From assembly GCA_965203805.1 (NCBI GenBank), contig OZ241917.1:96001-160000 (forward strand): a DNA stretch of 64,000 nt, given 5' to 3'. Every line of letters begins with the position of its first letter. The stretch's first letter is position 1. Shown here in pieces: positions 8,202 to 40,109 of the stretch. Position numbers and translations under genes: made by a program. The DNA comes from Candidatus Latescibacterota bacterium. GTDB taxonomy: Bacteria > Latescibacterota > UBA2968 > GCA-2709665. Under the pieces are notes generated by a model. It made no database searches. It saw nothing but the letters and a program-made list of their open reading frames with translations, and was not told where the DNA came from.

Positions 8202-8402
8202 TTAGCCTTAATGCGACAAAATCAGCAACGCGGCGTCACGACAAGACGTTTCGAATTGAGCCGAAAAAGGTCGTTCCGGAAGGACATTTTTTCCGTTCAC
8301 GTCCAGTGACCTGAAGGATCATAGAAATCAGCAGTTAAATCACCTTTATTCACTTGCACATATTCGAATTAATGTCCCCGAATAATGACGAATCAAGGTT
8401 AA
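8202..8402 (+). mobile_element. MITE-like dispersed repeat family A, full-length (~200 bp)
   Basis: Near-identical to 18334-18532; imperfect terminal inverted repeat TTAGCCTTAA...TCAAGGTTAA; no transposase ORF. Confidence 0.8.
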
Positions 8403-8624: not shown

Positions 8625-8875
8625 CCCTTTGTGTTTTTGTGCCTTTTGTGGCAAATGCCTTTGTCGCGCTTTTTGGTTTTTCCTCGTTCTCTCGTGCTAA
8701 TATCGTGCCTTTCGTGTGTTTCGTAGTTTCTGATGTTGGTTTTCTCGCGCCTTTGTCGTGTTTTTCGGTTTCGTGCTTTTTTCGCGTTTTTTCGTGTATT
8801 TCGTAGTTTTCGATGTTCGTTTTCTCGCGCTTTTTGGTTTTCATCCTGTCCCATCCTGTCTATCCATGTAAGTTT
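8625..8875 (+). repeat. Degenerate T-rich array of ~80-bp units built from 9-bp-period modules
   Basis: TCGCGC anchors at 8664, 8745, 8825; TTTGTG x3, TTCGTG x3 and ATCCTG-ATCCTG-ATCCATG modules; homologous to 38040-38240 and 38585-38675. Confidence 0.7.
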
Positions 8876-34359: not shown

Positions 34360-34376
34360 GGTTGGCCATGTTCAGC

Positions 34377-34428
34377 GTAGTGGTGATTTGAGGCATATTG
34401 CAGCCACTATAAAGAAATCGCTAAAAAG
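34377..34428 (+). promoter_or_regulatory. SAM-II (SAM-alpha) riboswitch aptamer
   Basis: GTAGTGG-TGATTTG...TTGCAG-CCACTAT-AAAGAAATCGCTAAAAAG fits the SAM-II pattern (P1 stem, UGAUUU, UUGCA, 3' GCUAAA); lies upstream of a methionine-pathway gene. Confidence 0.85.
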
Positions 34429-34493
34429 CTCATGACCGGATCGACGTTTGCGTATTCAGGTTCTCTGGGGCTTTTTAGCTTCAGTTTTTTTTT
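34420..34493 (+). terminator. Terminator-like hairpin + U-tract in the metB leader (putative expression platform)
   Basis: GCTAAAAAGCTC (34420-31) pairs with GGGCTTTTTAGC (34468-79); T9 at 34485-93. Confidence 0.5.
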
Positions 34494-37909: not shown

Positions 37910-37995
37910 GGGGAGGTACCCAAGCGGTCAACGGGGGCAGACTGTAAATCTGTTGGCTGACGCCTTCGGTGGTTCGAATCCGCCCCTCCCCACCA
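37910..37995 (+). tRNA. tRNA-Tyr (GTA)
   Basis: GGGGAGG/CCTCCCC acceptor stem, CTGTAAA anticodon loop, long variable arm, GGTTCGAATCC, encoded CCA. Confidence 0.95.
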
Positions 37996-38011
37996 TTTCC
38001 CGGGCCCCGCG

Positions 38012-38041
38012 CCCCTCCTCAAACGGAGGGGTTTTTATTTT
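38012..38041 (+). terminator. Intrinsic terminator after tRNA-Tyr
   Basis: CCCTCC-TCAAAC-GGAGGG hairpin followed by a T-rich tract. Confidence 0.65.
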
Positions 38042-38240
38042 CTGTCGCGCTTATCGGTTTTCTATCCCGTTCCTCCTGTCCACCCATGTCAATTGCAGTA
38101 GGTGAAAATGACTGCAAAAGACGCCAAACATGGATACACAGGATAGGCAGGATGAAAAGCAAAATTCGGAAAAAACTAACCTTAATTCGTAAAAAGACAA
38201 CCGAAAAATCGGCCACAAAAAGCACAAAAGACACAAAGGG
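38042..38240. repeat. Inverted pair of ATCCTG/ATCCATG modules plus a CACAAA x3 module
   Basis: CCTGTCCACCCATG (+) faces CATGGATACACAGGATAGGCAGGATG; GCCACAAAAAGCACAAAAGACACAAAGGG is close to the reverse complement of 8625-8652. Confidence 0.65.
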
Positions 38241-38263
38241 CACGGCTGCGAAACGGCGTGTAG

Positions 38264-38397
38264 AGGTCGTCCAAAGGCATGTATTCTCGGTTCACGTCCA
38301 GTGACCTGAAGGTTCCTGAAAATCCGACGTCAAATCGCCTTAATTCACCTGCGTTTATTCGAATTCACGTTCCCTGAGAACCACGAATCACGGCCAA
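38264..38397 (+). mobile_element. MITE-like family A, diverged partial copy
   Basis: GTTCACGTCCAGTGACCTGAAGG...AAATCGCCTT..TTCAC...GAATT.ACGT.CC...ACGAATCA. Confidence 0.7.
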
Positions 38398-38584
38398 AAC
38401 CTGAGATATCCGTGAAAACCGGTGGGTTTGTTGCCAAATCGGTTGATTATCAATAACATTAGCGGAGAATATATCGAAAACCATGAAGCGTCCGGAATCG
38501 TTTTGGCTCGCGTTATATTGGGTTTCAGGGTGTTCGTTGTGTTGGCGTGCGGTCCTATGGTGAGTCGATTCCCTGCCGTTACTG

Positions 38585-38675
38585 GTTTCGTCTCGCTTTT
38601 CGTGTTTTTCGTGTGTTTCGTAGTTTCTGATTTTCGTTTTGTCGCGCTTTCCGGTTTTCATCCTGTCCATCCATG
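38585..38675 (+). repeat. T-rich repeat unit forming the 5' exon of the group II intron
   Basis: ~90 bp homologous to 8779-8868, ending ATCCATG. Confidence 0.7.
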
Positions 38676-39460
38676 GTGCGCCGTGAAAAGGCGCGGAACT
38701 CCAGTGGGTGAGAGTCCCACCCGACAAATGTTGCTGCAGTCGGTAGCAACCGGAGCGGGGGTGAAGGTAACGACATCTCCGAAGCCTCCGGTGTAAAGGG
38801 TCGCAAGGCGACTCGGCGAGTATGCGGGCCGAAACGTGCAGTGAACGCTGAGCAGGCCTCGAAAAAGGTAATGCGGGAGCCGACCCGCCCATGGATCGGG
38901 GAAGGCCGCCGTCGTTGGAAAAAGAGAGCAACGCGCGCATCCAACGGTCCCGCCTGCCTGTCCGAGGGACGCAGGCAGGCCGGGGTAATGGCGAAGGCAC
39001 GTATACAAGGAGATCCGACGCAACACGGGAAGCCCCAGCGGTGGTGTATAGACACCAACCGGACGCCCGTGAGGGACAGGTCGGGCCGTATGGGGTGGCG
39101 GACAGGCTCGTAGTACCCGTGAAGCCGGGTAATGCCGGTGGAGGGAAGGGGCCTGACTTCGGATGTGCTTGTGAAGGGGACAACGGTCGGGAGAGTGGCG
39201 CAAGCCTATTACCTCCTCTAAAAGTAGATGAGGCGACTCCAGAGCAAGCTTGGGCTTCAGGTGAAGCTGTCCGGGCAGTGCGGGCAGCGTGTGCCTGAAG
39301 GCGACGTCCGTCGGAGAGCCGGATGCGGGAAAACCGCACGTCCGGTTCGATGAGCGGGATGTGGAAACGGAGCACGGAGCGGCTATTGAGGCACCGCCAG
39401 ACGAAAGGGGCGGAAACAGATAGGCCACTCCTAAACCACCGCGCCACATCTCGACTCTAC
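38676..39460 (+). mobile_element. ORF-less group II intron (785 nt)
   Basis: 5' GTGCG; domain V GAGCCGGATGCGGGAAAACCGCACGTCCGGTTC (39316-39348, AGC triad); domain VI ending CGACTCTAC; EBS1 CATGGAT (38890-96) complementary to IBS1 ATCCATG (38669-75); no RT ORF. Confidence 0.92.
38953..38979. repeat. 27-bp palindromic micro-element (CCTGCCTG...CAGGCAGG) inside intron domain I
   Basis: Same arms as 36659-36691 and same CCG^CCG flank. Confidence 0.6.
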
Positions 39461-39521
39461 TAAATTCCGTTTTGAGAATTGACGGGATGAAGTTTGCGAG
39501 CGCGATTATTGACAAAAATTC

Positions 39522-39550
39522 TTGACATCCATACCTATATATTATAACTT
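39522..39550 (+). promoter_or_regulatory. Putative promoter for tRNA-Gly/Thr-rpmG
   Basis: TTGACA at 39522 (a second at 39509) with AT-rich TATAAC/TAACTT -10 region. Confidence 0.5.
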
Positions 39551-39621
39551 GTTAAGTCTGGAAACTTTCAGGGCCGGCATTCTTGCGTGTACGACCCGCA
39601 GATCGTCGTTTCCTGTTCTGC

Positions 39622-39698
39622 GCGGGAATAGCTCAGTTGGCTAGAGCGTCAGCCTTCCAAGCTGAATGTCGCGGGTTCGAGTCCCGTTTCCCGCTCCA
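39622..39698 (+). tRNA. tRNA-Gly (TCC)
   Basis: GCGGGAA acceptor, CTTCCAA loop, GGTTCGAGTCC, CCA. Confidence 0.95.
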
Positions 39699-39752
39699 AT
39701 TTCCTGCGGGCTGCGTTATCAGCCCTTTTCTGTCGTGCAGACGGGGTACAGG

Positions 39753-39828
39753 GCCCATGTAGCTCAGTCGGTAGAGCACCTCCTTGGTAAGGAGGAGGTC
39801 ACCGGTTCGAGTCCGGTCGTGGGCTCCA
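39753..39828 (+). tRNA. tRNA-Thr (GGT)
   Basis: GCCCATG acceptor, TTGGTAA loop, CCA. Confidence 0.95.
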
Positions 39829-39850
39829 GAACAACGTCCGGTCCCCATCC

Positions 39851-40003
39851 ATGCCCAGAGATCTGATTACATTGGCCTGCGCCGATTGTGCGCGCCGGAA
39901 TTATACGACGAACAAGAACCGGCGATTACACCCGGACCGCGTCGAATTCAAGAAATACTGCAGGTTCTGTCGCAAGCATACCCTGCACCGGGAGACTCGC
40001 TGA
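39851..40003 (+). CDS. rpmG: 50S ribosomal protein L33 (Zn-ribbon form)
   Basis: Manual translation [50 protein letters not shown]. Confidence 0.95.
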
Positions 40004-40033
40004 GATTCAGGATTCACTGCAGATTTTGGGGTT

Positions 40034-40109
40034 AGGGCAGTAGCTCAATTGGTAGAGCACCGGTCTCCAAAACCGGTGGTTGCGGGTTCGATTCCTGCCT
40101 GCCCTGCCA
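40034..40109 (+). tRNA. tRNA-Trp (CCA)
   Basis: AGGGCAG acceptor, CTCCAAA loop, located before secE. Confidence 0.95.

What the first reader, a model, noticed from the sequence alone, without database searches (positions are those of the whole stretch)
38676..39460. ORF-less group II intron that appears to home into a dispersed short-repeat family
Seen: boundaries, DV and DVI look intact. The EBS1 loop (CCCG-CCCATGGAT-CGGG) pairs 7/7 with the exon end ATCCATG, which is the terminal module of the repeat family at 8.6-8.9 kb and 38.0-38.7 kb. DIV holds only ~100 nt of apparent IEP remnant. A candidate EBS2 (GCAGG, ~38852) could pair with exon CCTGT. Established: ORF-less bacterial introns can borrow RT/maturase in trans, and some introns target terminators, attC sites or IS elements. 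Inference: a non-autonomous retroelement using a multi-copy intergenic repeat as a renewable safe harbour, i.e. a repeat-intron partnership.
Basis: partly seen in the sequence, partly recalled or inferred. Interest (0 to 1): 0.85.

Follow-up and report, generated by a model that had tools for sequence, protein, structure and literature searches.

The report
Stranded ORF-less group II intron
This is a real self-splicing-type intron that has lost its own reverse transcriptase gene and sits in a short repeat it is built to recognise, but this genome no longer holds the enzyme that would let it move.

Summary
Window 38676-39460 is a 785-nt ORF-less group II intron. Rfam matches both ends, DV and a bulged-A DVI are intact, and a metagenome DNA contig carries the same locus with exactly these 785 nt absent.

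The EBS1 loop pairs 7/7 with ATCCATG. Across 61 parsed insertion loci in the genus, 13 EBS1 variants track their 5' exons and a single EBS3 base tracks the first 3'-exon base in 58 of 61. That makes it a IIB-type intron.

Its lineage does home into the ATCCTGTNN-ATCCATG|T repeat: 18 of 22 loci lie in it. About 70 empty sites exist in this genome, and the repeat is genus-wide, also in a genome where no intron was found.

Full-length parents, about 1.98 kb with a 441-aa RT/maturase that has no endonuclease domain, carry the same EBS1 and sit in the same repeat in two sister genomes.

Three corrections:
A better candidate lies at 38863-38871.
- The "IEP remnant" is only the ribosome-binding/start region plus the DIV 3' end.
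- This genome encodes no group II RT, so its six ORF-less copies and three fragments look stranded.

It parallels the Thermosynechococcus ORF-less introns: a good new member of a known kind.

The parts
38586..38675 (+). 5' exon: T-rich repeat module ending in ATCCTGTCC-ATCCATG. IBS1 = 38669-38675. Candidate IBS2 = 38658-38664.
   Evidence: Repeat families. 77 strict genome copies and the conservation profile. Pairing.
38676..39460 (+). ORF-less (deleted-ORF) IIB-type group II intron, 785 nt, GTGCG...CTAC
   Evidence: Rfam. Copy comparison. Empty-site contig joining 38675 to 39461.
38702..38839 (+). 5' part of domain I matched by Rfam group-II-D1D4-4
   Evidence: 101.8 bits, full model 1-138.
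38852..38856 (+). An invariant structural segment, not an exon-binding site.
   Evidence: 65 of 72 copies keep GCAGG with unrelated exons.
38863..38871 (+). Candidate EBS2 (AAAAGGTAA), single-stranded, just 5' of the EBS1 hairpin
   Evidence: The segment varies between lineages (GGT, GGGT, CGTT, CTGT, CTGC, AGCT, AGCC, GGC). It pairs with exon about -17..-10. Own 5.27 against cross 4.12 pairs with one bulge allowed; 3.72 against 2.91 ungapped. Modest support.
38888..38896 (+). EBS1 loop CCCATGGAT. CATGGAT (38890-38896) pairs with ATCCATG.
   Evidence: 7/7 here. 13 EBS1 types covary with their exons.
38953..38979 (+). 27-nt palindrome (CCTGCCTG...CAGGCAGG) inserted in domain I, 9 nt before EBS3
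   Evidence: Absent from 35 of 36 other distinct ribozyme sequences. 135 such palindromes in the genome. A contig of X6 lacks exactly these 27 nt.
38988..38988 (+). EBS3 (A in GGGGTA-A-TGGCG), pairs with T39461
   Evidence: paired in 58 of 61 loci (A-T 37, T-A 8, C-G 6, G-C 4, G.T 3).
39081..39081 (+). Private T at a column that is C in all 36 other distinct ribozyme sequences
   Evidence: Laid contigs read C here (table 3).
39155..39309 (+). DIV segment specific to ORF-less copies. It keeps the SD-like GGGAGAGTGG (39189-39198), the start-codon position (GCA at 39200-39202 where parents have ATG), about 5 further codons, and the last ~35 nt before DV.
   Evidence: The same DIV occurs in ORF-less copies of G000, G001, G003, G007, G008 and G011.
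39316..39348 (+). Domain V (GAGC... with a 2-nt bulge)
39352..39457 (+). Domain VI: basal helix with bulged A39454 and a conserved distal extension of about 80 nt
   Evidence: 98% identical to the ORF+ parent over intron 635-785.
39461..39485 (+). 3' exon: IBS3 T39461 and the fading tail of the repeat (TAAATTCCGTTTT..)
   Evidence: +1 is T in 96% of 77 sites. Conservation reaches about +15.
8853..8869 (+). Empty site of the same kind (ATCCTGTCTATCCATG|T) elsewhere in the window
8386..8402 (-). Empty homing site of the sister ORF-less subfamily B (TTAACCTTGATTCGTCA|TT..), inside a ~130-bp module with ~73 copies
   Evidence: 20 empty perfect sites; three occupied TTCGTCA|GTGCG junctions.

Best explanation
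The feature is a non-autonomous, deleted-ORF, IIB-type group II intron. It belongs to a family that is spread through one genus whose sister genomes' records are titled 'Candidatus Latescibacterota'.

How it got here (inferred from established group II biology plus the covariation shown here):
1. The excised intron RNA reverse-spliced into DNA at ...ATCCTGTCC-ATCCATG|T.
2. It was guided by EBS1 (7 bp), EBS3 (1 bp) and probably an EBS2 at 38863-38871.
3. It was copied into DNA by a 441-aa RT/maturase without an endonuclease domain. That enzyme was supplied in trans by full-length sister introns of about 1.98 kb. The retained DIVa-like start region would be the enzyme's docking site.

Different lineages of the family have retargeted by changing EBS1/EBS2/EBS3, each to a different dispersed repeat. 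This lineage uses the ATCCATG repeat as a gene-free landing pad.

In this genome the RT-encoding copies are gone. The six ORF-less copies and three fragments are therefore stranded. They can at most splice, which is untested, and they are beginning to decay.
For: SHOWN
- Intron identity and exact ends.
- EBS1-IBS1 pairing: 7/7 in 38, 6/7 in 11, 5/7 in 9 and 4/7 or fewer in 3 of 61 parsed loci, over 13 EBS1 types. Own exon 6.34 against 3.66 pairs for exons of other types.
- EBS3-IBS3 is paired in 58 of 61 loci, with all four bases used at EBS3.
- 18 of 22 loci with EBS1 CCCATGGAT lie in the repeat: 11 of 11 ORF+ and 7 of 11 ORF-less.
- Parents encode a 441-aa protein with RVT_1 + GIIM and TIGR04416 at 356.9 bits (cut-off 300).
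- ORF-less copies of six genomes share one DIV.
- Own genome, one contig, 99.81% complete:
  - GIIM: 0 hits.
  - RVT_1 and TIGR04416 hit only one ORF, which is Drt8-like (1.3e-159).
  - tblastn with the genus IEP finds nothing at E <= 1.
  - RF00029 finds only the six ORF-less copies.
- Decay: copy B3 lacks the EBS1 hairpin. Three loci are 179-264-nt 5' fragments. The window copy has a private change at an invariant column.
- Recent mobility: A1, A2 and A3 lie at three unrelated loci and differ at 0-2 positions. All carry the same 27-nt palindrome, so the insertion-bearing RNA was still mobile.
- An empty-site allele exists in a related population.
Against: - No RNA evidence for splicing or a lariat. 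The exon-exon joint seen in RNA library X6 also stands in DNA run X4 of the same sample. It therefore reflects an empty allele.
- Absence of a helper rests on one consensus metagenome-type assembly. Plasmids, or minority alleles that carry an ORF+ copy, would not be seen.
- Three near-identical copies argue that mobility stopped only recently, if it stopped at all.
- EBS2 support is modest.
- The docking role of the retained DIV start region is inferred by analogy, not tested.
- The copy at genome 5624622 (A2) sits at a 5/7 site outside the repeat. Three ORF-less copies in G001 are also outside it. Repeat targeting is therefore a preference set by pairing, not an absolute rule.
Confidence: 0.8

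Rival explanations
1. The ORF-less copies in this organism are still mobile. The helper could be an RT that the assembly does not show (a plasmid, a minority ORF+ allele, a co-resident strain). Less likely, it is a non-cognate RT such as the resident Drt8-like enzyme.
For: - A2 and A3 are identical and A1 differs at 2 positions, at three unrelated loci that include one ectopic 5/7 site.
- The ribozyme departs from 417 conserved columns only by a tolerated palindrome and one base.
- ORF+ forms circulate in related communities: a 1526-nt contig in RNA library X16 has 1376 letters in place of 39155-39309.
Against: - Four independent searches find no group II RT in a one-contig, 99.81%-complete genome.
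- Only 2 of about 72 perfect sites are occupied here. In genomes that have the RT the figures are about 9 of 47 (G001) and 7 of 29 (G008).
- Fragments and an internally deleted copy show decay.
- No case is known to me of a defence-type RT mobilising a group II intron (recalled).
Confidence: 0.14
2. The copies spread as DNA, by segmental duplication, by recombination between repeats, or by riding on a mobile repeat element, and not by retrohoming.
For: - The host repeat is itself multi-copy and mosaic.
- D1-D3 phylogeny shows exchange between ORF+ and ORF-less copies.
Against: - Identity between copies starts and stops exactly at the intron ends, and the flanks differ.
- Each EBS1/EBS3 variant matches its own flanks.
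- The empty allele lacks precisely 785 nt.
- A2 is outside any repeat.
Confidence: 0.02
3. The ORF-less RNA has been kept for a host or ribozyme function of its own, for example as a DNA-cutting ribozyme like the ORF-less IIC 'HYER' RNAs, or as a regulator of the downstream tRNA operon.
For: - ORF-less copies persist without an RT in G000, and no RT was found with this query in G006 and G007.
- The core is well conserved.
- The intron lies on the same strand as tRNA-Tyr and tRNA-Gly, between them.
Against: - Copy sites are not conserved between genomes.
- The locus exists without the intron in a relative.
- Copies decay.
- The RNA is IIB-type, not IIC.
- Nothing links it to expression of a neighbouring gene.
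Confidence: 0.04

Closest known systems
Thermosynechococcus elongatus TeI3/TeI4 intron family (Mohr, Ghanem & Lambowitz 2010, PMC2882425; passages read)
   Same: - One ORF deletion in DIV gave an ORF-less lineage that then multiplied.
- Remnants of the ORF ends and the DIVa region are kept.
- The family split into groups with different EBS sequences and good EBS/IBS pairing at their sites.
- Proteins of ORF+ relatives act in trans.
   Different: - Those are CL/IIB1 introns whose protein has an En domain; here the protein is 441 aa without one.
- The hosts are in different phyla.
- Their targets are other introns, IS elements and scattered sites. Here they are short dispersed intergenic repeats with tens of empty copies.
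- Here D1-D3 of ORF-less and ORF+ copies intermix on the tree.
- This particular genome has lost every RT donor.
- Their supplementary figures were not available to me.
RmInt1 and relatives in Sinorhizobium meliloti (PMC4615759 and PMC5894124, abstracts from the search listing; target details recalled)
   Same: [quoted passage not shown]
- High copy number is reached by homing into a multi-copy mobile sequence.
- Related introns diverge in target specificity.
   Different: - RmInt1 homes into an insertion sequence (recalled), not a ~60-nt intergenic motif.
- Our protein is at most about 34% identical to the matches listed from the plasmid collection other than one Planctomyces record. That collection counts 100 Sinorhizobium records (40 of at least 5000 records listed).
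- Class membership was not established.
C.te.I1 of Clostridium tetani, the 'sole known' bacterial ORF-less intron in a genome without an IEP (Zimmerly & Semper 2015, PMC4424553; passages read)
   Same: ORF-less group II intron(s) in a genome with no related RT gene.
   Different: - The review presents C.te.I1 as one independent ORF-less intron.
- Here there are six copies plus fragments, of a family whose RT-encoding parents are present in sister species. The orphan state is therefore recent and secondary.
Class C (IIC) introns behind terminators and attC sites, and ORF-less IIC 'HYER' ribozymes (the former recalled; the latter from a passage of bioRxiv 10.1101/2024.08.31.610620)
   Same: Use of abundant, gene-free, repeated DNA features as landing sites. 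ORF-less forms exist.
   Different: - IIC introns read a DNA hairpin plus a short IBS1/3 and have a shortened DV (recalled).
- This intron has a full DV, and its EBS1 and EBS3 covary with the target sequence (EBS2 is only a candidate). It reads sequence, not a hairpin.

Membership tests
Group II intron ribozyme | Conserved 5' GUGYG and 3' AY ends, six-domain layout | tested here: met
   GTGCG at 38676 and ..CTAC at 39460. Rfam D1D4-4 and Intron_gpII are both above their cut-offs.
Group II intron ribozyme | Domain V of about 34 nt with an AGC triad and a 2-nt bulge | tested here: met
   39316-39348. 13 DV pairs; some change on both sides across 21 sequences.
Group II intron ribozyme | Domain VI with a bulged branch-point A 7-8 nt from the 3' splice site | tested here: met
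   A39454 is unpaired between a 10-bp and a 3-bp helix.
Group II intron ribozyme | Actual splicing or lariat formation | not testable with these tools
   The only exon-exon joint seen also stands in DNA.
Subgroup IIB-type target recognition | EBS3-IBS3 pair with the first 3'-exon base | tested here: met
   58 of 61 loci paired, with four EBS3 bases.
Subgroup IIB-type target recognition | EBS1-IBS1 pairing with the last 6-7 exon bases | tested here: met
   13 types; own 6.34 against cross 3.66 of 7.
Subgroup IIB-type target recognition | EBS2-IBS2 pairing | tested here: inconclusive
The candidate at 38863-38871 scores modestly above cross-lineage controls.
Subgroup IIC (class C) | Shortened DV, no EBS2, insertion behind a DNA hairpin | tested here: not met
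   DV is full length. Sites are defined by sequence that covaries with EBS1/3.
Autonomous mobile group II intron | RT/maturase ORF in domain IV | tested here: not met
   No RT-like remnant in the intron (tblastn best E = 2.6). The + strand ORFs that overlap the intron are at most 135 aa, and the longest starts upstream of it.
ORF-less intron mobilised in trans (Thermosynechococcus type) | Related RT-encoding intron in the same genome | tested here: not met
   None in G000. Met in G001, G003, G008 and G011, which hold both forms.
ORF-less intron mobilised in trans (Thermosynechococcus type) | One shared deletion, with ORF-end and DIVa remnants | tested here: met
   The same DIV occurs in six genomes. 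The SD/start region and the 3' end are alignable to parents.
Named bacterial class (A-F, CL, ML) | Placement of IEP and RNA among reference introns | tested here: inconclusive
   The best solved relatives are IIC-type RTs, only at 1e-53 and 1e-50. Listed plasmid matches are at most about 34% identical, apart from one Planctomyces record at 62%. No labelled reference set was at hand.

The most novel reading that the evidence does not exclude
[quoted passage not shown] The signs are three near-identical copies, one of them at an ectopic 5/7 site, and a core that is untouched apart from a tolerated palindrome. This would mean mobilisation by a non-cognate enzyme, such as the resident Drt8-like defence RT. 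Alternatively the protein would come from neighbouring cells in the coral- and marine-labelled communities where these sequences occur.
Probability: 0.08. Interest if true: 0.8.

Novelty: new member of a known kind. Interest (0 to 1): 0.45.

Why it matters
- It gives a clean natural data set for how group II introns retarget: 64 insertion loci, 13 EBS1 types and four EBS3 bases within one genus.
- It shows an ORF-less lineage that outlived its RT donors in at least one complete genome. A 2015 review called that state almost unknown in bacteria.
- Short host repeats, and not only IS elements, terminators or attC sites, can serve as renewable gene-free landing pads.
- The family is compact (about 730-820 nt) and its recognition rules can be read directly from the sequences. 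That makes it a candidate for ordinary targetron-type tests.
- It does not change the accepted mechanism.

Tried and rejected
- Repeat as a small gene. The strand opposite the repeat begins ATG GAT GGA CAG. I tested whether it encodes a small protein. Open lengths vary from 2 to more than 100 codons with no conserved frame, so I rejected this.
- Repeat as the inverted end of a transposon or MITE. Facing pairs exist (for example window 38129 and 38675). However, conservation runs about 15 nt past the insertion point, and I found no transposase-bearing master copy. Left open.
- My first regular expression for the repeat was wrong and returned only chance hits. It was replaced.
- Two further 'exon + GTGCG' strings, at genome 4819635 and 1748666, are chance matches and not introns.
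- Class assignment by solved structures and by plasmid records was uninformative.
- RNA evidence for splicing. RNA-library contigs cover the intron, and one joins the exons. The same joint stands in a DNA run of the same sample, so it says nothing about splicing. Depths come from contigs and multi-copy sequence and were not interpreted.
- Literature. Searches for group II introns with Latescibacteria (2 papers that only co-mention the terms), with REP elements (5 papers listed, of which I saw only titles and abstract openings; none is about a group II intron in a repeat) and with intergenic repeats found no description of this family. I claim absence from print only for those searches.

Full report
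WHAT IS THERE

Window 38676-39460 is a group II intron.
- Rfam places group-II-D1D4-4 at 38702-38839 (101.8 bits, cut-off 49). It places the DV/DVI family Intron_gpII at 39314-39460 (46.9 bits, cut-off 40).
- The sequence starts GTGCG and ends CTAC.
- Folding the last 161 nt gives a DV hairpin with a 2-nt bulge (39316-39348). It also gives a DVI (39352-39457) whose basal helix leaves A39454 unpaired, 7 nt from the 3' end (z = -4.45, none of 200 shuffles folds as well).
- I aligned the window's 3' end with twenty relatives taken from several phyla. In that alignment 19 of 38 predicted pairs keep pairing through changes on both sides. The long distal part of DVI is conserved, so it is a family trait.
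- The + strand ORFs that overlap the intron are at most 135 aa. Neither they nor any other frame resembles an RT.

THE ENDS ARE EXACT

The genome is one contig of 5.87 Mb, 99.81% complete. It holds six copies that are alike from the first to the last intron base and unlike outside:
- three of 785 nt that differ at 0-2 positions (A1 = window, A2, A3);
- three at 87-90% identity (B1-B3);
- in addition, three 5' fragments of 179-264 nt.

A 267-nt contig of DNA run X4 consists of 77 letters ending at 38675 followed directly by 190 letters from 39461 into tRNA-Gly. The stretch laid after the joint shows 14 other letters. A relative therefore has this very locus without the 785 nt. The same joint appears in RNA library X6 from the same sample. 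Because it exists as DNA, it is no evidence for splicing.

PARENTS AND RELATIVES

- The intron DNA matches 17 of 41 related genomes, the window's own among them. That is 13 of 14 in the genus, 16 of 21 in the family and 0 of 19 in the neighbouring family.
- In G001, G003, G008, G011 and G013, intron positions 1-479 and 635-785 lie about 1.4 kb apart. These are full-length introns of 1948-2003 nt with a 441-aa ORF in DIV.
- The protein has RVT_1 and GIIM domains and passes TIGR04416 (356.9 bits, cut-off 300). It ends after the maturase region, so it has no endonuclease domain.
- Records of these sister genomes are titled 'Candidatus Latescibacterota'. Proteins 60-70% identical occur in Planctomycetota, Acidobacteriota and others.

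TARGET RECOGNITION

I compared 64 distinct insertion loci from the genus, of which 61 could be parsed.
- EBS1. The nine-base loop after GAGCCGACCCG comes in 13 versions, and each fits its own 5' exon:

| EBS1 loop | 5' exon end | Where |
|---|---|---|
| CCCATGGAT | ATCCATG | G000, G001, G008 |
| TCTGACGAT | TTCGTCA | G000 subfamily B |
| ATTGTCAGC | GCTGACA | G001 |
| GCTTGCGAA | TTCGCAA | G003 |
| CCTTTCGAA | TTCGAAA | G007 |
| CCTGAATTT | AATTCA | G001, G011, G013 |

  Pairing is 7/7 in 38 loci, 6/7 in 11, 5/7 in 9 and lower in 3. The mean is 6.34 with the own exon and 3.66 with exons of other types.
- EBS3. One base in GGGGTA-N-TGGCG (A38988 here) pairs with the first 3'-exon base in 58 of 61 loci (A-T 37, T-A 8, C-G 6, G-C 4, G.T 3). 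This is the EBS3-IBS3 contact of IIB-type introns.
- EBS2. The single-stranded stretch just before the EBS1 hairpin (38863-38871, AAAAGGTAA) does vary between lineages. It can pair with exon positions about -17 to -10, often with one bulged exon base. It scores 5.27 against 4.12 pairs when one bulge is allowed and 3.72 against 2.91 ungapped. I treat it as a candidate.

THE REPEAT

- Copies in this genome. The strict motif ATCCTG-N-(1-3 N)-ATCCATG occurs 77 times. The next base is T in 96% of sites. Conservation runs from about -50 (a T-rich stretch, then one to three 9-nt units ATCCTGTYC) to about +15. By other patterns there are 71 empty and 2 occupied sites, or 70 empty sites with 0 for the reversed control.
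- Spread in the genus. The motif is present in all 13 other genomes of the genus that were searched, at 9 to 93 copies. That includes G009 with 28 copies and no intron match. The repeat therefore does not depend on the intron.
- Occupancy by this lineage. Of the 22 loci whose intron carries CCCATGGAT, 18 lie in this motif: 11 of 11 ORF+ copies (G008, G001) and 7 of 11 ORF-less copies. The four outside, among them A2 at a 5/7 site just past a stop codon on the other strand, look like ectopic events.
- Other lineages use other repeats. Subfamily B and the G003 copies sit in a ~130-bp module with about 73 copies here, which has 20 empty perfect sites. One of those empty sites is in the window at 8386-8402 on the minus strand. 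Five G001 copies share yet another flank.
- What the repeat does for the cell is unknown. It is not a conserved ORF.

DOMAIN IV

- ORF-less copies from G000, G001, G003, G007, G008 and G011 share one DIV, 216-219 nt from the D3 anchor to DV. That points to a single deletion.
- Against the parents, the first part stays alignable through the Shine-Dalgarno-like GGGAGAGTGG (39189-39198). It continues through the start-codon position (GCA where parents have ATG) and about five codons. The last ~35 nt before DV also align. The middle ~70 nt do not.
- At protein level nothing is detectable.
- The retained start region corresponds to what is the RT's main docking site in well-studied introns. That role is an inference for this intron.
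- A tree of D1-D3 does not separate ORF-less from ORF+ copies. It needs 4 changes, and at least 2 are forced by well-supported branches. The G003/G007 ORF-less copies group with the G003 ORF+ copies at 97/98. The two forms have therefore exchanged segments.

NO HELPER IN THIS GENOME

- GIIM gives no hit.
- RVT_1 and TIGR04416 hit one ORF only, at 72 bits against a cut-off of 300. That 522-aa protein is Drt8-like (1.3e-159).
- tblastn with the G008 protein finds nothing at E <= 1.
- RF00029 finds only the six ORF-less copies.
- With the same protein as query, full-length RT genes at 86-100% identity were found in G001, G003, G008, G011 and G013, and only pieces in G012. None was found in G000, G002, G005, G006, G007, G009, G010 or G014.
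- Occupancy of the ATCCATG sites is about 2 of 72 here. It is about 9 of 47 in G001 and 7 of 29 in G008. This is a small sample of related genomes, so it is only suggestive.
- Decay is visible. B3 has lost the EBS1 hairpin, and three loci are fragments.
- The window copy differs from 417 columns that are at least 95% conserved in 36 other distinct ribozyme sequences in two ways only: a 27-nt palindrome (38953-38979) and one base (T39081, C in all others).
- A1, A2 and A3 all carry the palindrome at three different loci. The RNA therefore moved after acquiring it.

COMPARISON AND VERDICT

- The closest parallel is the Thermosynechococcus family. There, one DIV deletion gave ORF-less introns that kept the ORF ends and DIVa, diversified in their EBS sequences, and are moved by relatives' proteins.
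- A 2015 review states that bacterial ORF-less introns are rare. It says they nearly always sit beside related RT-encoding introns, with one known exception. The present genome is a second kind of exception, reached by recent loss.
- Homing into multi-copy, gene-free DNA is a known strategy. The use of a ~60-nt host repeat with tens of empty sites, and of different repeats by sister lineages, is a nice variation but not a new mechanism.

I rate this a new member of a known kind, with moderate interest.

CAVEATS

- The assembly is a consensus and may miss plasmids or minority alleles.
- The related genomes are kin and not independent.
- All read evidence comes from contigs.
- The intron class was not named.
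- One key paper (Simon et al. 2008) was not held.
- Supplements were closed.

Noticed in passing
window 38953-38979; 135 places genome-wide: A family of 27-36-nt perfect palindromes (CCTGCCTG...CAGGCAGG), 135 copies in the genome. They have inserted at three different places inside intron copies. One contig of run X6 lacks exactly the 27 nt at this site. Short matches also occur in two other genera of the family.
   Followed up: partly
window 8270-8402 and 38280-38400: A repeat module of about 130 bp with about 73 copies. It carries the homing site of the sister ORF-less subfamily B on the minus strand. The window holds an empty site at 8386-8402.
   Followed up: partly
L174:2900-10700 (G000:C1:5765900-5773700): About 8 kb with few long ORFs, packed with the ATCCTGT..ATCCATG motif in both orientations. 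It includes tandem units of 135-138 nt and two identical 264-nt units. The listing shows several motif copies within a few kb in G004, G006, G010 and G001 as well; those stretches were not examined. Nature unknown.
   Followed up: partly
window 34370-34445 (+): Rfam SAM_alpha riboswitch match (48.9 bits, cut-off 36). The family is named for Alphaproteobacteria, but this genome's relatives are titled Latescibacterota.
   Followed up: no
L014:733-2301 (-) (G000:C1, about 1.679-1.681 Mb): The genome's only reverse transcriptase ORF (522 aa) matches the defence family Drt8 (1.3e-159). It is not a group II intron protein.
   Followed up: partly
loci L050-L117 (D1-D3 tree): ORF-less and ORF+ introns intermix in the D1-D3 phylogeny, although all ORF-less copies share one DIV. 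This implies recombination or template switching between the two forms.
   Followed up: partly
window 37910-40109: A tRNA-Tyr, Gly, Thr, Trp cluster. The Tyr-Gly spacer is swollen to 1.6 kb by a terminator, repeat modules and the intron. A relative's contig has the same junction without the intron.
   Followed up: partly
window 39155-39309, run X16: A 1526-nt contig from an RNA library carries 1376 other letters in place of the ORF-less DIV segment. This is the RT-encoding form of the family, and it is present in a marine community library.
   Followed up: no
window 39081: The window copy has T where its two twins and all 36 other distinct family ribozymes have C. The effect on folding was not assessed.
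   Followed up: no
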